Below, piece by piece: positions 1 to 60,285 of a stretch of 64,000 nucleotides of DNA. The DNA is from Patescibacteria group bacterium (GTDB taxonomy: Bacteria; Patescibacteriota; Microgenomatia; UBA1400; PJMF01). Positions within the stretch are counted from its first letter, which is position 1. Every line of letters begins with the position of its first letter. The notes under the pieces were generated by a model that did no database searches, was not told the origin of the DNA, and was given only the letters and a program-made list of their open reading frames with translations. The position numbers were made by a program, and so were the translations under genes. The DNA lies in contig JAZQJV010000018.1 in NCBI GenBank assembly GCA_045541795.1, forward strand, positions 37,857 to 101,856. The letters are read 5' to 3'.

Positions 1-1012
1 TACTGATGATTACTTGATCGCTTACGAACTGCTCAAAATGTACGAGCCAGAATTTACCAATTACGAGCGCACTTTTGATCTGGCCGCCATCCAACAAATG
101 TATGCTGATAAGCAGTCTATTGACGATGATCTGACCAGCCACATCGGCCGTCAATTTTTGCGCATCTCCAATAAATACGATGCCGTTTACCGCATGATCG
201 GCGAAATCACCAAGTCACTCAACATGAAAGCTGTGAGCGAAGGAGAAGAATTTTTTGGTGACGAGGGGAAAGTCCACGCCCGTTACCAGGAAATTTACGC
301 TGCTAAGTATAAAAGTCTCAAAAGCCGCCTGCTCAAAACCGCTTTCTGGACGACGCTTTCGGTGATTATTGCCAATCTCGCCAGCGTCATCATCATTGAG
401 TGGCCGGTAGCGGAATTTTTGGGGCTCGGTTTTGGTCCCGCGGCGATTGCTTTTGATATTTTCATCCCGTGTGTGGCGATGTTTATTTTGGTGATGCTCA
501 TCCGCCCGCCCAAAAAAGAAAACGAAGCTGTCGCCTGGAATGAAATCCGCAAAATCATCACAGCCGAGGGTCAGCAAGATACTTACGAGATCCGCCGACG
601 CCAGCGCGGGCCCAATCGCTTGGTGCAGGCATTTTTTTACGGGACTACGCTTCTGGCCGGAGGCGTGGGGCTGTGGGCACTAGGGATGATGTTTACGCTG
701 GCTGGGCTACCACCGACCTCAGTGTACCTCAATGTTGTCTACATCACGATGGTGCTTTTTGCCTCACTCAATATCCGCGCCAAAGCCCAAGAACTGACGG
801 TGTTTGAAAAAAGTTCTTTATTTGACTTTGTACTGGATATTTTTTCCATCCCGCTGGCGCGGATCGGCCAGTGGTTTTCCAAAAAGTGGAAAGAATACAA
901 TATTTTTTCCATTCTTTTTTCACTCATTATTGACTCGCCACTTTCAAGTTTTATTGGTTTTATCGAGGATTGGCGTAACTTCCTCAAAGAAAATAAATCG
1001 GAAATCCGCTAA
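1..1012 (+). CDS. Multi-pass membrane protein of unknown function, 5'-truncated by the window edge (reading frame is open to position 2). Its stop overlaps the uvrA-like start as ATGA.
   Basis: The ORF-track frame has no upstream stop before the window edge. About 6 hydrophobic helices are visible in the translation. The stop/start overlap with the next gene is at 1012. Confidence 0.5.
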   Translation, partial: TDDYLIAYELLKMYEPEFTNYERTFDLAAIQQMYADKQSIDDDLTSHIGRQFLRISNKYDAVYRMIGEITKSLNMKAVSEGEEFFGDEGKVHARYQEIYAAKYKSLKSRLLKTAFWTTLSVIIANLASVIIIEWPVAEFLGLGFGPAAIAFDIFIPCVAMFILVMLIRPPKKENEAVAWNEIRKIITAEGQQDTYEIRRRQRGPNRLVQAFFYGTTLLAGGVGLWALGMMFTLAGLPPTSVYLNVVYITMVLFASLNIRAKAQELTVFEKSSLFDFVLDIFSIPLARIGQWFSKKWKEYNIFSILFSLIIDSPLSSFIGFIEDWRNFLKENKSEIR

Positions 1013-3507
1013 TGACTAGTCAGACACCTGTGCAAATTGAAATCCGTGGCGCTCGTGTGCACAACCTACAAAATATCGACGTCGACGTCCCGCTACATCA
1101 AATTGTCGGCATTGCTGGAGTTTCTGGCTCCGGCAAATCGTCACTTGCTCTGGGAGTGCTGTATGCTGAAGGCTCACGGCGTTATCTCGAATCTCTTTCG
1201 ACTTTTACTAGGCGCCGGATGACGGGTGCGGCCGGTGCTGATGTGGATAGCGTTAAATATGTACCCGCGGCATTAGCACTCCATCAGCGCCCCGGTGTGC
1301 CTGGCATCAGAAGTACTTTTGGTACCATGACAGAACTACTCAATAGTTTACGCTTGATGTTTTCTCGTCTGAGCGTATATAAGTGCCCGCATGGTCATGA
1401 CGTCCCGCCCTCGCTCAGCGTTGCCGCAGAAGTAGATTTTTATTGCCCGACTTGCGGCGAGCAAGTCACGCCTATCGGCGCCGAGGAACTTGCTTTTAAT
1501 AGCGGCGGTGCGTGTACGCATTGTGGCGGCACGGGCACTATCCGCACTGTTGACCGCGCCACTCTCATCCCTGATGAAAGTCTGACGATAGACCAGGGCG
1601 CTGTCGCTCCCTGGAATAGTTTGATGTGGTCACTCATGACCGATGTTTGTCGAGCGATGGGCGTGCGTACTGATGTACCTTTTAAAGATCTCACCGATCA
1701 AGAAAAAGAAATCGTCTATGACGGCCCAATGGTCAAAAAGCACATTTTTTATCGGCCCAAAAATGAAGACAGCGTTACTGCCGCCGAAATGGATTTCACT
1801 TATTACTCTGCCACGGCCACAGTCCTTAATGCTCTCAAAAAAGTCAAAGACGAAAAAGGCATGGCGCGCGTCGAAAAATTTTTGCGAGAAGATACTTGTC
1901 CTCATTGCCACGGCACGAGACTTAATGAGCGCGCCCGCTCGCTGAAGTTGTGTGGTATCAGCCTGGATCAAGTCTGTACTTACACGCTCGCGCAGGCAAT
2001 TGATTGGGTCCGTCAGATGCCAGGGACACTGCCGGCACCAATGCAGCCGATGGCTAGGGACATTGCAGATGCTTTTTTGCACACGGCCAAAAGGCTTACT
2101 GACTTGGGACTGTCTTACCTCACGCTCGACCGCCAGGCTGCCACTCTTTCTACCGGCGAGCGTCAGCGCACTCAGCTCGCCCGTAGCGTGCGCAACCGCA
2201 CCACCGGTGTGCTTTATGTACTCGACGAGCCATCTATCGGCCTGCATCCTTCCAACCTTGAGGGTCTCACAGGGGTAATGGACGATTTAGTGGCAGACGG
2301 CAACTCTGTCGTCTTGGTGGATCATGACACTCAAGTCCTTGCCCATGCTGACTGGCTGATCGAACTCGGGCCGGAAGCTGGCGCTGAAGGCGGCACCATT
2401 ATTGCCACCGGCAGCCCGGCTGCTCTTGCCAGCGATCCTCACTCCCGCATCGGCCAATTCCTCACTCCAGACCAGCCGCATGTACTTAGAGCACGCACAC
2501 CACAGTCGGCTCTTTTTGCTGTTGGCCGCATTACTATTGCTACTGATAATATTCACACTGTTGCTCCGCTAGAGGTCAGCTTTCCCAAAGGCCGACTCAC
2601 CGTCGTCACTGGCGTTTCTGGCTCTGGCAAGACCACTCTCATCCTCGAAAGTCTCATTCCCGGCTTGCGCTCATATATTGAAAACACTACACTTCCTGCG
2701 CACGTCAAATCCATCCATGCGGACGGCATCACTCAAGTCAAACTCATCGACGCTACGCCGATCGGCATTAATATCCGCTCTACAGTGGCCACTTATGCCG
2801 GCATCCATGACGAGCTGCGCAAAGTTTTCGCCCGAGTGCCGACGGCAAAAGAGGCTGGTTATAAAGCCGGCGACTTTTCTTACAATACCGGTAAACTGCG
2901 CTGTGCCACGTGTGACGGCACTGGTTCCATCAGCCTTGACGTCCAATTTTTACCCGACGTAGAAATTGAGTGTCCTACCTGCCACGGTACGCGTTACAGC
3001 CGCGAGGCCTCCAACGTCTACCGACAAAATCAAGACAGTACCAAAATCTCTTTGCCTCAGTTGATGGCCATGAGTGTGGACGAAGCACTTCAAATCACTG
3101 GCGACCTCAAAAGCGTCCACGCTCGGCTGCAAGTTTTGCATGACTTAGGCTTGGGTTATCTCACCCTGGGCGAACAGACTCCCAGCCTTTCCGGCGGTGA
3201 AGCCCAACGTCTCAAGCTCGCCAGCGAAATGGGCAAAGGCCAAGCGGACACAGTTTTTGTTTTTGATGAACCCACGATCGGTCTTCATCCTCTGGATGTG
3301 CGCACTCTCATGAATGTTTTCCAACACTTGTTGGATCTAGGCGCCAGTGTCATTGTCATCGAACATGATCTTGACGTGATGAGGAATGCAGATTACATTG
3401 TTGACATGGGACCTGGCGGCGGCGAGGCTGGCGGGCGAGTGGTGGCCTGTGGCACTCCGGATGACATCCGTGCCTGCAAGCACAGTGTCACCGGGCGTTA
3501 TTTGTAA
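1012..3507 (+). CDS. UvrA-family ABC ATPase, class II (UvrA2-like), lacking the UvrB-binding domain
   Basis: The N-terminus reads IRGARVHNLQNIDVDVPL..GVSGSGKSSLA..LYAEGSRRYLESLS, matching UvrA. Cys-rich zinc modules (CPHGHD..CPTCGEQ, CTHCGGTG, CATCDGTG, CPTCHGTRY) and two ABC signature/Walker B regions (LSTGERQR..VLDEPSIGLH and [18 protein letters not shown]) are present. At 831 aa it is shorter than canonical UvrA (~940 aa). The segment corresponding to E. coli residues ~130-250 is absent. Confidence 0.85.
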   Translation: MTSQTPVQIEIRGARVHNLQNIDVDVPLHQIVGIAGVSGSGKSSLALGVLYAEGSRRYLESLSTFTRRRMTGAAGADVDSVKYVPAALALHQRPGVPGIRSTFGTMTELLNSLRLMFSRLSVYKCPHGHDVPPSLSVAAEVDFYCPTCGEQVTPIGAEELAFNSGGACTHCGGTGTIRTVDRATLIPDESLTIDQGAVAPWNSLMWSLMTDVCRAMGVRTDVPFKDLTDQEKEIVYDGPMVKKHIFYRPKNEDSVTAAEMDFTYYSATATVLNALKKVKDEKGMARVEKFLREDTCPHCHGTRLNERARSLKLCGISLDQVCTYTLAQAIDWVRQMPGTLPAPMQPMARDIADAFLHTAKRLTDLGLSYLTLDRQAATLSTGERQRTQLARSVRNRTTGVLYVLDEPSIGLHPSNLEGLTGVMDDLVADGNSVVLVDHDTQVLAHADWLIELGPEAGAEGGTIIATGSPAALASDPHSRIGQFLTPDQPHVLRARTPQSALFAVGRITIATDNIHTVAPLEVSFPKGRLTVVTGVSGSGKTTLILESLIPGLRSYIENTTLPAHVKSIHADGITQVKLIDATPIGINIRSTVATYAGIHDELRKVFARVPTAKEAGYKAGDFSYNTGKLRCATCDGTGSISLDVQFLPDVEIECPTCHGTRYSREASNVYRQNQDSTKISLPQLMAMSVDEALQITGDLKSVHARLQVLHDLGLGYLTLGEQTPSLSGGEAQRLKLASEMGKGQADTVFVFDEPTIGLHPLDVRTLMNVFQHLLDLGASVIVIEHDLDVMRNADYIVDMGPGGGEAGGRVVACGTPDDIRACKHSVTGRYL

Positions 3508-4101: not shown

Positions 4102-5217
4102 TTAATTAAGGCGCGTGATCCTGGCATAGCCGTTTCCCGTTTTGCTGCAATCGGCGGTTGCTGTCGCACTTACACAAGTATTCGACTGCGTACGGGTAGC
4201 GTCAACGGTAGAAGTCGCACAGTTGTAGCACGTCATGTGTTTGGTGATGCCGTTTGCGGAAATGAGGTTGGATGAACCAATGTAACCGGAGCCGCCAGAA
4301 CCAGACGAAAATATTGCGCCACTTCCACCATAGTATCCTGCTCCTCCACCACTATTTGTTTCGCCAGTTGAGACGTGAGAATCACCGCCACGTCCAAAGT
4401 CACCACAGGCATTATTGCCGTTAGAACATCCACCATTTGTTTGCGTACCAGGATATGACTTTCTTCCTGAATAAGTCCACCCAGAACATAAACTTGTCCC
4501 TTCTGCACCAGAGTAACCTCCTCCATTACCACCGATTCCGCAATTGGCATAATTAGTATAATTAGCACCGCCGCCAGCACCAGCAACAATTATTATTGCT
4601 GCTTGATTGGTTTTAAATGTTTGCAGCAAGCCAGTACTTGTTGTGATACTGGTGGCACCGCCGCCGCCAGCTACTGAAGTTGTACTTTCGTACATATAGA
4701 CATGATATCCAAAACCACCACCATTATACCCTCCGTTTGTGTAACCCGTAGCGCTGTAAAGCGACTGACCTTTGCCACCAACATTGATAAATAATGAAGT
4801 ATCTAGTGATGACATAATACTGCCAACTGCATAACCGCCATAACCTCCGGCTCGACTAGTAGCATCTCCTCCCTGCGCTCCCCACACCTCCAACTTGTAA
4901 CTCCTCCCGGCACACGCCGTAAATGTCTGCTCACCGCCGGTATAGTCAAAATTCTTACTTCCGCCCACACTCAGCCCGTCATCACAAGTACTGGCCGGCT
5001 CTGTCGCCATCCATCGTCCGCCGCCAATCGCCACAAACTTACTCCCACCAATCCTGATCGTGCTGCCGGCGGCAATATCACGCACCTTCATCGTGGTAAT
5101 GCTAGCGCTCGCCGCCCACACTTTACCGTTTCGTGCGGGCAATTCATCGCTCCATCGTGCCGCTAGTGCCAGTATCATTGTCGCCGCCAAAATCCCCCGC
5201 CACGCTGCATACCGCAT
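4102..5217 (-). CDS. Secreted glycine-rich repeat protein of unknown function (about 372 aa from Met at 5217). It has an N-terminal signal/TM segment and long G/S/T/N/Y-rich tracts.
   Basis: The translation begins MRYAAWRGILAATMILALAARW, which is signal-like. GGxGG / GGYGGY / AGAGGG tracts run throughout. Cysteines cluster near the C-terminus. Confidence 0.6.
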   Translation of the reverse strand: MRYAAWRGILAATMILALAARWSDELPARNGKVWAASASITTMKVRDIAAGSTIRIGGSKFVAIGGGRWMATEPASTCDDGLSVGGSKNFDYTGGEQTFTACAGRSYKLEVWGAQGGDATSRAGGYGGYAVGSIMSSLDTSLFINVGGKGQSLYSATGYTNGGYNGGGFGYHVYMYESTTSVAGGGGATSITTSTGLLQTFKTNQAAIIIVAGAGGGANYTNYANCGIGGNGGGYSGAEGTSLCSGWTYSGRKSYPGTQTNGGCSNGNNACGDFGRGGDSHVSTGETNSGGGAGYYGGSGAIFSSGSGGSGYIGSSNLISANGITKHMTCYNCATSTVDATRTQSNTCVSATATADCSKTGNGYARITRLN

Positions 5218-5545
5218 GCCGTTCCTTTCGTCTATTTCATTTCCAGGCGGGACACTTCTTCGTCCAGAAAAATGCACACGAGCGCTTCCCATCCACAGTC
5301 AGCACAGCAGCGATCTTGGTGAGACTCATAGCTTTCGCTCGAACGTCTACTCCAGAAGCTCCTTACTCATGTGCATTTTTCTCCGTTCGAACTCCACTAA
5401 CAATTTCTTGCTTTGAAACGTTTGGAGTTACTCAACTATCACAAATTCGTCTTTTCCTTTCATCTCACTACTTGCTACTGTGGATGTATTTATTTGTATT
5501 TTAACTTGTCACCGCTTATTTGTCAATAGTCAGTTTTGACGGGTT

Positions 5546-5589
5546 TTTACATCTTGACGGCCTCGGTTTGATGTGTTATAATATAGTAT
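5546..5589 (+). promoter_or_regulatory. Sigma70-type promoter with TTGACG at -35, a 17-nt spacer and an extended -10 TGTGTTATAAT, with the ATG 7 nt downstream (leaderless start of the ATPase gene)
   Basis: The sequence ttgacggcctcggtttgatgtgttataatatagtatATG is read directly. Confidence 0.55.
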
Positions 5590-7011
5590 ATGAAGATCAG
5601 GGACATCAGCGTGAGCGGCCACCCGTTTTTTGGGGAGCTCACTTTTGATGCCCTCCTCCCAGACGGCACACCGGCCAGCACCATCGTCATCGCCGGCGAA
5701 AATGGTACCGGCAAGACTAAGTTTCTCGAGCTGCTTTATGATTTTTCTCGTCTCCAGCCTACAGCAACAGGCTCTGGTTACTGTCAGCTGACATTTGATT
5801 TTGACGTGGAGCAGCTGCAAGCACTTCAAGCTGAGCCAACGCTTTCATCCATCCTCACCGAGGCTACCAATACTTGGCGCATTAAAGTCGATCACTCACT
5901 ACCGGCCACTCAAGGCATTACTATTTTTTGCCAAGATGAAAGCGGCTGGAAACAGTTGGATGCGGCTCTACTCTTGGCTGATCCAGTATTCCGCGCCAGC
6001 GTCAAGGCGCTTTATTCTACTGTGGAAATAAATTACATTCCCACCGCCAGTACTTTCATCACTAATAATAGTATGGAGGATACCGCGCGCGAGAGTATCC
6101 GCTCTGGTCAAGATCTTGCCACCAAAATCCAGCAACTCCTGATTGACATGCAAAGTCGTGACGCCAATGATCTCAACGACTGGACACTAGCGCATCCAGG
6201 ACAAGTGCCGCCCGCATCCGTGCAAGGCCAGCGCATCAAACAGTTCCAAAATGCCTTTAGTGTCATGTTTGGTGACGAACTCAATTACTACGGGGTGAAG
6301 TCTGCTGGTGAGCGCAAACAGGTTTTATTCCGTAAACGTGGCCAACTGGTAGATCTGGCTGATCTTAGTTCTGGCGAAAAGCAAATTGTTTTCCGCGGGG
6401 CATTTTTACTGCAAAACCGCTCCAGCATGTGCGGTAATACTATCCTGATCGATGAACCAGAACTCAGCCTCCATCCGCTCTGGCGCACTGGGATTTTACA
6501 TTACTACCAATCACTATTTAGTGATGGTACCACTATCCGCGGTCAGCTGTTTGTCACTACTCACTCGCCACGGGTGGTAGAAAGCTGCTTCCATCAGCCC
6601 CAAAGTCTTTTGTGGATTTTGCGCCAGGAAAATGGCAAAATCAGCGTCCACAAAATCGGCACCACTCGTGCTCTGCCTAGCGTCACGATTGCCGAGACCA
6701 ATTACTTAGCTTTTGGCTTGGCGAGCATTGACTATCACGTGGGGCTGTACAGTTATCTGCAATCCCTGCTTCACAGTCCCAGCATTATCAAACTTGACCA
6801 CTTCATCCGTCATCACGCCGCTTTTAATCCCAGCCGCCACGAGCTTACTGATCAGTTTGCTGACGCCACTTATTTTACCCTACCTACCTATATCCGCAAT
6901 GCTATCAATCATCCTGAGTCCGGCCGTGAATTTACGCCCACTCAGCTGCGTGTCTCTATCGATTTGCTCCGTCAGATTTGTCAGTCAGAAAATAATAAAT
7001 GTAAAGGTTAG
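5590..7011 (+). CDS. ABC/AAA_21-type ATPase (SMC/OLD-like ATPase fold) with an uncharacterised ~120-aa C-terminal domain
   Basis: Walker A GENGTGKT, signature-like LSSGEKQ, Walker B ILIDEPELSLHP and an H-loop TTHSP are present. No Toprim or nuclease motif is recognisable in the C-terminal region. The stop at 7009-7011 lies 1 nt before the ispH ATG. Confidence 0.6.
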   Translation: MKIRDISVSGHPFFGELTFDALLPDGTPASTIVIAGENGTGKTKFLELLYDFSRLQPTATGSGYCQLTFDFDVEQLQALQAEPTLSSILTEATNTWRIKVDHSLPATQGITIFCQDESGWKQLDAALLLADPVFRASVKALYSTVEINYIPTASTFITNNSMEDTARESIRSGQDLATKIQQLLIDMQSRDANDLNDWTLAHPGQVPPASVQGQRIKQFQNAFSVMFGDELNYYGVKSAGERKQVLFRKRGQLVDLADLSSGEKQIVFRGAFLLQNRSSMCGNTILIDEPELSLHPLWRTGILHYYQSLFSDGTTIRGQLFVTTHSPRVVESCFHQPQSLLWILRQENGKISVHKIGTTRALPSVTIAETNYLAFGLASIDYHVGLYSYLQSLLHSPSIIKLDHFIRHHAAFNPSRHELTDQFADATYFTLPTYIRNAINHPESGREFTPTQLRVSIDLLRQICQSENNKCKG

Positions 7012-7012
7012 C

Positions 7013-7882
7013 ATGCAAGTTTTTTTAGCCAAGGTAAGCGGTTTTTGTGGTGACGGTGGCAAGTTTGGCGTCAGCGGTGCTATCCGTTTGGCCCAGGAAG
7101 CGGCTTTGGGCAATCCGGGGCAAGTTTACATCGTCGGCGATCTCGTCCACAATACTCATGTTACCGATTGGCTCGAGCAGTCTTACGGTATTCATTTCGT
7201 CAAAAATTTAGACGCAGTCCCGGATAAAGCCACCATCGTCATCAAAGCTCACGGCGCACCGCCAGATTTTTGTGATACTTGCATCAGCAAAAATCTTCAC
7301 ATCGTGGATGCCACCTGTCCGATGGTCAAGGCCGCCCAAAAAATGCTCAAAAAATACGTGGACGAAGGCAAGCAGGTCATTTACGTCGCCTCTAAACCTG
7401 ATCATGACGAAGCGGTGAGTGTAAGTCGCCAAGTGGATCACGGCGTCCAAGTGGTGACGCTGCCGGAGCTAGAAAATCTCACCATCAAAAATCCTCTCGC
7501 GACCGTCGTCATGACTCAGACCACTTTATCGATTTTAGAAACAAAGCGCCAGTTTGCCGCCTTGCAAAAAAAGTATCCCGACCTCACTATCCAGCCACAT
7601 TTATGTCGGGCGACGACTGACCGGCAGCAAGCAGTTTTGGAATTGGCCGCTAGTGTTGATGTGCTCATCGTCGTCGGTGCGCCGCACTCAAGTAATTCGC
7701 GCCGCCTGCTTGAAGTGGCCAGTACTAGTGGTAAACCAGCTTACAGTGTCGATGAAGCCGCCGACTTAGACGAGCACTGGTTTGATGCCAGCATTAGTAA
7801 AGTCGGCGTCATTGCCGGCGCCAGCACTCCGGCATGGATCACGACTAGCGTAGTAGAAAAAATTAAAAAAATCAAAAATTAA
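7013..7882 (+). CDS. ispH: 4-hydroxy-3-methylbut-2-enyl diphosphate reductase (IspH/LytB)
   Basis: The translation from the in-frame ATG at 7013 (MQVFLAKVSGFCGDGG..HNTHV..ATCPMV..GASTPAWI) matches the LytB family. The longer ORF-track call 6713..7882 overlaps the preceding gene and is rejected. Confidence 0.8.
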   Translation: MQVFLAKVSGFCGDGGKFGVSGAIRLAQEAALGNPGQVYIVGDLVHNTHVTDWLEQSYGIHFVKNLDAVPDKATIVIKAHGAPPDFCDTCISKNLHIVDATCPMVKAAQKMLKKYVDEGKQVIYVASKPDHDEAVSVSRQVDHGVQVVTLPELENLTIKNPLATVVMTQTTLSILETKRQFAALQKKYPDLTIQPHLCRATTDRQQAVLELAASVDVLIVVGAPHSSNSRRLLEVASTSGKPAYSVDEAADLDEHWFDASISKVGVIAGASTPAWITTSVVEKIKKIKN

Positions 7883-60201: not shown

Positions 60202-60285
60202 GGAAGTGTCGCCTAGCGGCTATGGCAGCGGTTTCGAAAACCGCCGGGAGCAATCCCTCGCAGGTTCGAGTCCTGTCACTTCCGC
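60202..60285 (+). tRNA. tRNA-Ser (anticodon CGA), type II with a long variable arm. CCA is not encoded.
   Basis: The acceptor GGAAGTG pairs with CACTTCC. The anticodon stem is GCGGT/ACCGC with the loop TTCGAAA. The variable arm is GGGAGCAATCCCTC, and the T-loop is GGTTCGAGTCC. It is preceded by tgtgcTATAAT. Confidence 0.8.

What the first reader, a model, noticed from the sequence alone, without database searches (positions are those of the whole stretch)
5590..7882. Stand-alone ABC/AAA_21-type ATPase with an unknown C-terminal domain, immediately upstream of ispH
The 473-aa protein has a complete ABC-type nucleotide-binding fold (GENGTGKT, LSSGEKQ, ILIDEPELSLHP, TTHSP) with an internal ~200-aa insertion between Walker A and the signature. 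This matches the layout of SMC/OLD/AAA_21-class ATPases that drive many anti-phage systems (OLD, PARIS AriA, Gabija GajA, Septu PtuA, AbiL). It also has a ~120-aa C-terminal region without an obvious Toprim or nuclease motif. No partner gene is visible.

Its stop is 1 nt from the ispH ATG, so it appears to be the first gene of the ispHFEG transcript. The glycine-rich surface protein gene and a terminator/repeat cluster lie on its other side.

It could be a single-gene defence or abortive-infection ATPase, or a housekeeping ATPase. The operon fusion with MEP genes is unusual either way.
Basis: partly seen in the sequence, partly recalled or inferred. Interest (0 to 1): 0.5.

Follow-up and report, generated by a model that had tools for sequence, protein, structure and literature searches.

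The report
Solitary ABC ATPase–HEPN defence gene
The gene in front of ispH encodes a stand-alone ATPase fused to a small RNase-like (HEPN-type) domain, an uncharacterised relative in design of the phage-suicide enzyme PrrC, which was inserted in this one species ahead of an essential isoprenoid operon and is not a housekeeping gene.

Summary

The family has about 957 clusters at 50% identity, and the domain was C-terminal to an AAA_15/21 ATPase in all ten representatives checked. It is scattered across at least six phyla and has no conserved partner gene. Its commonest neighbours are type I restriction-modification genes, sometimes in a PrrC-like embedded position, and integrases. Sister proteins on the same ATPase carry a Toprim domain instead.

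Relatives with 64-80% identical IspH keep ispHFEG but lack the ATPase. Only same-species contigs have it, and there it is under purifying selection (dN/dS 0.07).

Best reading: a single-protein, PrrC-like abortive-infection RNase. This is a new variant of a known kind, of moderate interest.

The parts
5554..5582 (+). Sigma-70-like promoter TTGACG-17 nt-TATAAT with a TG extension. The ATG follows 7 nt after the -10 hexamer, so the mRNA is probably leaderless.
   Evidence: Promoter scan, 11 of 12 matches. Sequence read. Function is inferred.
5590..7011 (+). 473-aa ABC ATPase with a HEPN-like C-terminal domain (whole ORF including stop).
   Evidence: AF2 pLDDT 90.9. dN/dS 0.069 against the same-species contig L008.
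5590..6651 (+). ABC (AAA_15/AAA_21, PtuA/OLD-like) ATPase head, residues 1-354, with a beta-rich and helical-hairpin insert at about residues 55-230.
   Evidence: PADLOC PtuA PDLC00289 at 7.4e-27 over 1-354. Foldseek against PDB gives PtuA, retron PtuA and Rad50 at about 1e-13.
5695..5718 (+). Walker A, GENGTGKT.
   Evidence: G36, E37, N38, G39, G41 and K42 are invariant in 43 sequences.
6364..6384 (+). ABC signature, LSSGEKQ.
6442..6462 (+). Walker B with catalytic Glu, ILIDEPE, followed by the D-loop SLHP.
6556..6570 (+). H-loop, TTHSP.
6682..7008 (+). HEPN-like C-terminal domain (residues ~365-473). Predicted elements: helix 380-394, helix 399-408 (invariant D403), hairpin insert 409-430, helix 431-440, loop, helix 450-472.
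6895..6912 (+). RNAINH, the Rx4H HEPN catalytic motif (R436, N437, H441).
   Evidence: Kept as [IVL]RNxxxH in 113 of 123 homologues, and in the distant plasmid and E. coli prophage members.
6724..6738 (+). SIDYH, a second invariant polar cluster (S379, D381, H383) at the start of HEPN helix 1.
   Evidence: Its role is unknown.
7013..7882 (+). ispH, the first gene of the conserved ispH-ispF-ispE-ispG operon. It starts 1 nt after the ATPase stop. This is context, not part of the system.
   Evidence: Pfam LYTB 1.3e-72. The operon is conserved without the ATPase in L093-L097.

Best explanation
The gene encodes a single-polypeptide abortive-infection or toxin-type defence protein built like PrrC. 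An N-terminal ABC ATPase of the PtuA/OLD (AAA_15/21) clade acts as sensor and switch. A C-terminal HEPN-fold domain acts as a metal-independent endoRNase through R436/N437/H441.

Proposed mechanism (inferred). In uninfected cells the ATPase head holds the HEPN domains apart or occluded. A phage cue changes the nucleotide state or oligomerisation of the ATPase; in restriction-modification-embedded homologues this is probably loss or inhibition of the restriction complex. The change brings two HEPN domains together into the composite active site typical of HEPN dimers. RNA is then cleaved (tRNA anticodon loops by analogy, or mRNA/rRNA), and translation stops before phage progeny form.

In this genome the gene is a lineage-specific insertion. 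It brought or captured a strong promoter and now lies directly ahead of, and is probably co-transcribed with, the essential ispHFEG operon.

Shown: the architecture, motif conservation, predicted fold, patchy distribution, restriction-modification/integrase contexts, absence of a partner, species-restricted adjacency to ispH, and purifying selection. Inferred: RNase activity, the substrate, the trigger, a defence phenotype, and co-transcription.
For: 1. All ABC catalytic motifs are intact and invariant. The fold matches PtuA, Rad50 and SMC heads.
2. The C-terminal domain is conserved over the whole family, with near-invariant RNxxxHP, invariant D403 and invariant S379/D381/H383.
3. [quoted passage not shown] The acidic residue is in helix 2 and the insert lies between helices 2 and 3. 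This matches the HEPN definition (PMC3710099).
5. The same ATPase clade also occurs with a Toprim nuclease in the same C-terminal position (group B). L046 hits RT-Toprim_I-C at 2.5e-25 and AriAB, and the group consensus shows EGxTDE...DxD. An Old-like ATPase in E. coli prophages carries this HEPN-like domain where Old has Toprim. Both look like effector-module swapping.
6. No conserved neighbour was found in 38 loci. The top neighbour families are ResIII, Phage_integrase, HsdM_N, N6_Mtase and Methylase_S.
7. PrrC-like embedding occurs in some loci: hsdM...hsdS-ATPase-hsdR in L075 (gaps -1 and +4), and similar arrangements in L034 and L088.
8. Members sit at prophage edges and in mobile contexts: E. 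coli L099/L100 directly after the integrase, L005, and a Klebsiella plasmid copy between two IS elements next to a TIR gene.
9. The family is scattered over Bacillota, Bacteroidota, Alpha-, Gamma- and Delta-proteobacteria, Bdellovibrionota and candidate-phyla bacteria.
10. It is absent upstream of ispH in relatives, but kept with dN/dS 0.069 within the species.

Against: Most family loci are not in recognisable defence islands. The window itself has no other defence or mobile gene nearby. GC and GC3 match the neighbouring genes, so the acquisition is not recent. There is no hit in the phage genome collection. No antitoxin or immunity gene is evident. No experimental datum exists for any member that I could find.
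Confidence: 0.6

Rival explanations
1. The protein is an orphan sensor ATPase. Its C-terminal helical domain is a non-catalytic docking or nucleic-acid-binding module, like the PtuA C-terminal region that holds PtuB. The effector would be encoded elsewhere or has been lost.
Against: No conserved neighbour was found in 38 loci. R, N and H of the motif, plus D403, are nearly invariant across phyla and in 27-30% identical members. That pattern suits an active site better than a docking surface. Toprim nuclease occupies the same position in sister proteins.
Confidence: 0.15
2. The protein is a selfish toxin or addiction module, or a nuclease with another substrate such as DNA, with no role in phage defence. 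It persists here because it sits between the promoter and essential MEP genes.
For: The stop codon is 1 nt from ispH, with no promoter-like or terminator-like site between them. Deleting the gene together with its promoter would therefore silence ispHFEG. The gene sits inside housekeeping gene strings in both candidate-phyla lineages. There is no defence island in the window.
Against: Across the family the recurrent neighbours are restriction-modification genes, integrases and prophage ends. This is the pattern of defence genes. Purifying selection on the whole protein argues that it has an activity useful to the host.
Confidence: 0.15
3. The protein is a housekeeping ATPase functionally tied to the MEP/isoprenoid operon, or to DNA repair (RecF/RecN/SMC-like).
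For: It is tightly packed with ispH and probably shares a transcript. A UvrA-like gene lies 2 kb upstream. Composition matches the genome.
Against: ispHFEG is conserved without it in relatives at 64-80% IspH identity. The closest orthologue is at a different locus. The distribution across phyla is patchy, and only 10 of 5426 E. coli genomes carry a member. SMC_N scores E=0.085, below the cut-off, and no NCBIfam housekeeping model reaches its cut-off.
Confidence: 0.03

Closest known systems
PrrC anticodon nuclease (E. coli prr locus)
   Same: A single polypeptide with an N-terminal ABC ATPase regulatory domain and a C-terminal HEPN RNase domain, and no separate effector. Some family members occupy the same position, embedded between hsdS and hsdR or next to hsdM of a type I restriction-modification system (L075, L034, L088).
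   Different: The ATPase belongs to the AAA_15/21 (PtuA/OLD) clade, not the Rad50/SbcC-like AAA_13 clade; there is no PF13166 hit. The motif is the canonical RNxxxH rather than the divergent PrrC/RloC version. No sequence similarity is detectable. The window copy is not linked to restriction-modification genes. The substrate is unknown.
RloC and RloC-like ABC-HEPN proteins in prophages (for example the 738-aa AAA ATPase in the P2-like prophage of E. coli APEC O1)
   Same: ABC ATPase plus C-terminal HEPN in one protein, often free of restriction-modification genes and sometimes prophage-borne (PMC3710099).
   Different: RloC-type proteins are much longer and have a coiled-coil with a CxxC zinc hook. 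The APEC O1 protein shares only the P-loop with the window protein (BLASTP E=0.04). I did not confirm that this protein is the APECO1_4465 prototype of the 2013 paper.
Septu PtuA / retron type I-A PtuA
   Same: These are the closest ATPase by sequence and fold (PADLOC PDLC00289 at 7.4e-27; PDB 8ee4, 9o4a and 9n69).
   Different: PtuA works with a separate HNH nuclease, PtuB. No such gene is present here. NCBIfam PtuA scores 46 bits against a cut-off of 500. The C-terminal domain differs.
OLD, fused PARIS AriAB and HEC-04 ATPase-Toprim proteins
   Same: One-protein design of ABC ATPase plus C-terminal nuclease. Direct sister proteins of this family (group B, 525-630 aa) carry Toprim in that position. 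The E. coli prophage member has an Old-like ATPase (1.3e-45).
   Different: The effector here is HEPN-like (metal-independent RNase chemistry is expected), not Toprim.
ERFG_01251-type ABC-HEPN proteins (Anantharaman et al. 2013)
   Same: Described as an ABC ATPase fused to a classical HEPN domain (PMC3710099). This may be the same or a neighbouring family.
   Different: That family is said to carry an extra HEPN/Toprim-NTD1 domain, which is not seen here.

Membership tests
HEPN superfamily | [quoted passage not shown] | tested here: met
HEPN superfamily | [quoted passage not shown] | tested here: met
   R436-N437-A-I-N-H441 lies at the end of helix 431-440. It is kept in 113 of 123 homologues. 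The definition is taken from PMC3710099.
HEPN superfamily | Conserved acidic residue in helix 2. | tested here: met
   D403 is invariant in 43 sequences and lies in helix 399-408.
HEPN superfamily | Profile-level sequence match to a described HEPN family. | tested here: not met
   No Pfam hit for any of 29 C-terminal domains at E<=10. No PADLOC hit. No PDB sequence hit.
HEPN superfamily | Metal-independent endoRNase activity leaving a 2',3'-cyclic phosphate. | not testable with these tools
   This needs biochemistry.
PrrC/RloC anticodon nucleases | ABC ATPase N-domain plus HEPN C-domain in one polypeptide. | tested here: met
PrrC/RloC anticodon nucleases | Sequence membership (Rad50/SbcC-like AAA_13, PF13166; PrrC-type C-domain). 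| tested here: not met
   No PF13166 hit at E<=0.1. An RloC-like E. coli protein shares only the P-loop.
PrrC/RloC anticodon nucleases | Embedding in a type I restriction-modification operon (a PrrC feature). | tested here: not met
   The window has no restriction-modification genes nearby. Within the family it is met in L075, L034 and L088, and partly in L089 and L002-L004.
PrrC/RloC anticodon nucleases | Cleavage of the tRNA-Lys anticodon loop on phage infection. | not testable with these tools
   No experimental data.
Septu (PtuA + PtuB) | PtuA-type ATPase. | tested here: inconclusive
   PADLOC PtuA model at 7.4e-27 over residues 1-354, but the NCBIfam PtuA equivalog scores 46 bits against a cut-off of 500.
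Septu (PtuA + PtuB) | Adjacent HNH nuclease PtuB. | tested here: not met
   The downstream gene is ispH. No conserved partner was found in 38 loci.
OLD / Gabija GajA / PARIS | Toprim (or DUF4435) nuclease, fused or adjacent. | tested here: not met
   No Toprim motif or hit in the window protein. Toprim is present only in the group B sister proteins.
Housekeeping SMC/RecF/RecN ATPases | A family-model match and conserved synteny. | tested here: not met
   SMC_N E=0.085, below the cut-off. No NCBIfam hit above its cut-off. Synteny with ispH is absent in relatives.

The most novel reading that the evidence does not exclude
A potentially toxic ATPase-RNase gene has captured the transcription of an essential operon. 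By inserting with its own strong, leaderless-type promoter 1 nt ahead of ispH, it replaced the ancestral ispH promoter region. The cell can then no longer delete the toxin gene and its promoter without silencing isoprenoid synthesis. This would be an addiction-by-operon-capture route for fixing a defence or toxin gene in a reduced genome. More broadly, the roughly 957-cluster family would be an unrecognised single-gene RNase defence system that acts as a back-up to restriction-modification across many phyla.
Probability: 0.15. Interest if true: 0.65.

Novelty: new variant of a known kind. Interest (0 to 1): 0.45.

Why it matters
If the prediction holds, a family of about a thousand 50%-identity clusters is a one-protein RNase defence or suicide system that current defence annotation does not cover. 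It gets no full-length hit in PADLOC 2.0, Pfam or NCBIfam, and PGAP calls its members only "AAA family ATPase" or "ATP-dependent nuclease". That would add a second, independently assembled ABC-HEPN lineage beside PrrC/RloC. It would also show that the PtuA/OLD ATPase chassis swaps Toprim and HEPN effectors. Finally, it would give a compact system, with sensor and effector in 470 aa, for studying how ABC ATPases gate HEPN RNases. The ispH junction is a tidy case for testing how accessory genes become locked into essential operons in small genomes.

Tried and rejected
- Housekeeping reading: rejected on synteny and distribution.
- Hidden partner gene: all-against-all clustering of neighbours in 38 loci found none. 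A Pfam census of 109 flanking proteins showed only restriction-modification genes and integrases recurring.
- Sequence-profile identification of the C-terminal domain failed: Pfam on the single sequence and on 29 members, PADLOC, and an HMM search of PDB sequences.
- Foldseek on the C-terminal domain model gave nothing. The afdb50 library was not available.
- A phage-genome tblastn search found no match.
- Scanning genome contigs and metagenome contigs with IspH to find relatives' contexts gave nothing useful. This was solved instead through an IspH homologue search plus contig look-ups.
- Exact look-ups of the window's own ATPase and IspH proteins returned no contig.
- Identity with the 2013 "APECO1_4465" ABC-HEPN family: I found an RloC-like 738-aa ATPase in the APEC O1 P2-like prophage, and it is unrelated beyond the P-loop. 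I could not confirm the locus tag. The first region of that genome I fetched was irrelevant.
- The Krishnan et al. 2020 ABC ATPase classification paper is not held in the library.
- The Rfam scan found only a distant tRNA at 60202-60284.
- The source organism was not identified. Candidate-phyla (Patescibacteria-like) affiliation is only inferred from neighbouring T4SS_pilin and DUF5652 genes in related contigs.
Full report
**1. Observation**

The window has an ATG-initiated ORF at 5590-7011 (+) of 473 aa. Its translation contains GENGTGKT (res 36-43), LSSGEKQ (259-265), ILIDEPE followed by LSLHP (285-296) and TTHSP (323-327). I checked the coordinates. The TAG stop at 7009-7011 is followed by one base and then the ATG of ispH at 7013. 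ispH hits Pfam LYTB at 1.3e-72. ispF, ispE and ispG follow. Pfam assigns AAA_21 (1.8e-16) and AAA_15 (7.2e-14).

**2. The ATPase**

- PADLOC's best hit is a PtuA model at 7.4e-27, covering residues 1-354 only. AriA, AriAB, ATPase-Toprim, AbiLi and HEC-01/02 ATPase models follow.
- NCBIfam has nothing above a curated cut-off. PtuA scores 46 bits against a cut-off of 500, and the "restriction system-associated AAA ATPase" TIGR04435 scores 39.5 against 300.
- PDB sequence search finds only PtuA, retron PtuA and AriA, over residues ~245-367.
- An AlphaFold2 model built from a 43-sequence alignment is confident (pLDDT 90.9, pTM 0.87).
- Foldseek against the PDB gives retron and Septu PtuA, Rad50 and SMC heads at about 1e-13.

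All catalytic ABC motifs are invariant in the alignment. The N-terminal 354 residues are therefore a competent-looking ABC ATPase of the PtuA/OLD class.

**3. The C-terminal domain**

More than 100 homologues of about 450-490 aa align over 98% of the query at 34-42% identity, so the C-terminal region is part of the family.

*Conserved residues.* In the 43-sequence alignment the last ~110 residues contain invariant E369, F375, S379, D381, H383, L386, D403, I406 and I439. R436, N437, H441 and P442 are at least 90% conserved. The consensus reads TLPTYIRNAIDHP. [IVL]RNxxxH is present in 113 of the 123 retrieved homologues. The ten exceptions are truncated, frameshift-like, or belong to a different architecture. 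RNxxxH is the canonical HEPN Rx4-6H RNase motif, including the polar residue after R.

*Predicted fold.* A model of residues 358-473 alone has pLDDT 95.3. Its elements are:

| Element | Residues | Feature |
|---|---|---|
| Helix 1 | 380-394 | preceded by S379/D381/H383 |
| Helix 2 | 399-408 | invariant D403 |
| Insert | 409-430 | short helix plus beta-hairpin |
| Helix 3 | 431-440 | ends in R436-N437 |
| Loop | from 441 | begins with H441 |
| Helix 4 | 450-472 | |

Anantharaman et al. (PMC3710099, read) describe HEPN the same way. It is a four-helix up-down bundle with frequent inserts between helices 2 and 3. [quoted passage not shown] A conserved acidic residue lies in helix 2.

- HEPN toxins 8xdj, 4nqf, 7ae2 and 5yep;
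- HI0074, Csx1-Crn2, YutE and Csm6;
- AF0298, the C-terminal domains of ANT/KNT nucleotidyltransferases, and LAS1L.

By my reading, at least 13 of the top 20 are HEPN or HEPN-related.

**4. How the domain is distributed**

A profile of the domain searched against 1.84 billion cluster representatives finds 957 proteins at E<=1e-3 and 477 at E<=1e-10. In 148 of the best 150 the domain reaches to within about 45 residues of the C-terminus; in P0372 and P0304 it ends earlier. All ten representatives of unusual length that I checked have AAA_15/21 immediately N-terminal to it. Short ones are N-terminally truncated fragments and long ones have bigger ATPase inserts.

The domain rides on two ATPase sub-clades:
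- the PtuA-like one of the window;
- an Old-like one in an E. coli prophage protein. That protein hits PADLOC Old at 1.3e-45 over 1-352 of 578. It is 30% identical to the window protein over residues 285-444 and carries TFIRNHIHHPEN.

The window's ATPase clade also has sister proteins of 525-630 aa, which I call group B (Collinsella, Treponema, Bacteroides and a Saccharibacteria genome). Their C-terminus is Toprim-like. The consensus reads ylEG.TDE ... L.DcDt ... GiENaL. L046 hits RT-Toprim_I-C at 2.5e-25 and AriAB, and L049 hits RloB weakly. A known nuclease module in the same position on the same chassis is good circumstantial evidence that the HEPN-like domain is the effector.

**5. Genomic context of the family**

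A scan of 185,579 species genomes returned 80 loci. Of all 90 loci then held (these 80 plus earlier contig look-ups and the window), 45 have the window's architecture. They come from the following groups:
- Bacillota: Mediterraneibacter, Clostridium, Lachnospiraceae, Gemmiger;
- Bacteroidota: Chryseobacterium, Mesonia, Lacihabitans, Parabacteroides, Sediminibacterium;
- Alphaproteobacteria: Enterousia;
- Gammaproteobacteria: Shewanella, Lysobacterales;
- Betaproteobacteria: Neisseriaceae;
- Desulfuromonadales, Desulfovibrio and Bdellovibrionota;
- Peregrinibacteria and Nomurabacteria.

All-against-all clustering of neighbours found no conserved partner. A Pfam census of 109 genes at positions ±1 and ±2 in 38 non-redundant loci is topped by ResIII (4), Phage_integrase (4), HsdM_N (3), DEAD (3), then N6_Mtase, SWI2_SNF2, T1R_D3, N6_N4_Mtase and Methylase_S (2 each). 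The remaining families are mostly singletons.

Specific contexts:
- In L075 the order is hsdM ... hsdS-ATPase-hsdR, with gaps of -1 and +4 nt.
- In L034 the order is hsdM-hsdS-ATPase-...-hsdR, and in L088 hsdM-ATPase-...-hsdS. This is the arrangement that defines the prr locus.
- One 479-aa homologue (P0007) is a solitary gene with about 500-bp flanks. It appears next to an integrase, RelB/ParE, a type I HsdR, or at the end of a Mu-like prophage, depending on the contig.
- Distant members lie on a Klebsiella IncFIB plasmid between two ISNCY copies beside a TIR gene, and on Lactobacillus helveticus pLH1.
- In 10 of 5426 complete E. coli genomes a member sits directly after a prophage integrase.

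**6. The ispH junction**

Same-species contigs carry IspH at 97% identity and the ATPase at 98-99%. They keep the same 1-nt junction. Between the window and L008 the figures are:

| Gene | dN/dS | Detail |
|---|---|---|
| ATPase | 0.069 | 32 synonymous, 8 non-synonymous changes; dS 0.12 |
| ispH | 0.10 | |
| ispE | 0.31 | |
| ispG | 0.007 | |

The ATPase's GC and GC3 (0.495 / 0.521) match its neighbours.

The next relatives have IspH at 80, 77, 69 and 64% identity. All keep ispH-ispF-ispE, and three of the four also keep ispG directly after ispE. Upstream they have a divergent T4SS-pilin gene, a divergent rpsT, or a small DUF5652 gene, and no ATPase. The closest ATPase orthologue outside the species (P0121, 54% identity, assembly GCA_017431625.1) lies 14 nt behind malQ and is not near ispH. 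The adjacency is therefore a species-level insertion, not conserved synteny.

A near-consensus promoter, TTGACG-17-TATAAT with a TG extension, lies at 5554-5582. The ATG is 7 nt after the -10 element, which suggests a leaderless mRNA. A divergent promoter at 5526-5498 serves the glycine-rich protein gene. Only one weak terminator-like hairpin (5993-6011, inside the ATPase ORF) and one weak promoter-like site (6143-6171) lie between the ATPase start and ispH, and neither is near the junction. Because the stop is 1 nt from the ispH ATG, the ancestral ispH upstream region must have been replaced. ispHFEG is then probably transcribed from the ATPase promoter. This is inferred and untested.

**7. 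Mechanism proposed**

By analogy with PrrC/RloC (PMC3710099; bioRxiv 10.1101/2024.01.29.577857), the ABC head would act as a nucleotide-dependent switch. It keeps the HEPN RNase off until a phage cue arrives. In embedded homologues that cue is most likely loss of restriction-complex integrity. The switch then allows two HEPN domains to pair into an active site that cuts tRNA or other RNA and stops translation. Every step after "architecture and motif" is inference.

**8. Comparison and novelty**

ABC-HEPN single-protein nucleases are a known kind: PrrC, RloC, and the computationally described APECO1_4465 and ERFG_01251 groups. This family is not a sequence member of PrrC/RloC. It has no PF13166 hit. 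An RloC-like 738-aa protein in the APEC O1 P2-like prophage shares only the P-loop with it. Its ATPase is PtuA/OLD-like and its HEPN motif is canonical. It is absent from PADLOC 2.0, Pfam and NCBIfam as a full-length family.

I could not exclude that it overlaps the ERFG_01251-type group listed in 2013. I class it as a new variant of a known kind. It is experimentally uncharacterised and of moderate interest. The promoter-capture arrangement at ispH is a side curiosity.

Noticed in passing
window 5554-5592: The ATPase gene seems to be leaderless. A near-perfect -35/-10 pair (TTGACG-17-TATAAT with a TG extension) ends 7 nt before the ATG, and no Shine-Dalgarno sequence is present. A second near-consensus promoter (5526-5498, minus strand) points the other way, towards the glycine-rich protein gene.
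   Followed up: partly
window 1012-3507 (+): An 831-aa UvrA-like protein is about 110 aa shorter than canonical UvrA. It matches the UvrA models only from about position 250 onward and scores just below the TIGR00630 cut-off (709.6 against 729.8). It may be a class-II or truncated UvrA.
   Followed up: no
window 4102-5292 (-): A 396-aa glycine-rich protein matches Pfam ALK_LTK_GRD (PF12810, 3.9e-34), the glycine-rich domain named after animal ALK/LTK receptors. A clean terminator hairpin follows the gene at 4065-4043.
   Followed up: no
L001 2209-3636 (P0003, P0123) versus L101 8001-9422 (P0121): The closest non-conspecific homologue exists in two forms. P0121 has an intact RNSINHPE C-terminus. 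P0003 and P0123 diverge after about residue 414 into unrelated sequence without the motif. This looks like a frameshift, from either decay or assembly error.
   Followed up: partly
L016, L031, L035, L038, L043-L053, L056-L058, L061, L063-L074, L076-L082, L084 (group B loci): Sister proteins of 525-630 aa share the window's ATPase (29-40% identity over residues 1-350) but end in a Toprim-like domain (EGxTDE ... DxD ... GIENAL). They are common in Collinsella and Treponema, and one is in a Saccharibacteria genome (L068).
   Followed up: partly
L099 6998-8446 and L100 6998-8446 (E. coli chromosomes): Ten of 5426 complete E. coli genomes carry a 482-aa protein that PGAP names 'ATP-dependent nuclease'. 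It has an Old-like ATPase plus the same HEPN-like C-terminus. It sits immediately after a prophage integrase inserted next to rcnR.
   Followed up: partly
L102 35936-38149 (-), E. coli APEC O1: The P2-like prophage carries a 738-aa AAA ATPase between the replication endonuclease gene and the portal gene. It has a CPFC zinc-hook-like motif and a C-terminal YINRGSHSD. It looks RloC-like and may be the APECO1_4465 prototype of the 2013 HEPN paper.
   Followed up: no
P0151-P0153 (IspH homologues, 461-462 aa): Some relatives encode fused IspH-IspF proteins (PF02401 plus PF02542 in one polypeptide).
   Followed up: no
L097 3059-5864 and L101 6661-9422: malQ (GH77) lies two genes upstream of ispH in one relative. 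In another lineage it lies directly upstream of the ATPase, and there a T4SS-pilin gene follows the ATPase. The same pilin gene type precedes ispH in L093. The malQ / pilin / ispH neighbourhood may be a shared, rearranged region that the ATPase entered once.
   Followed up: no
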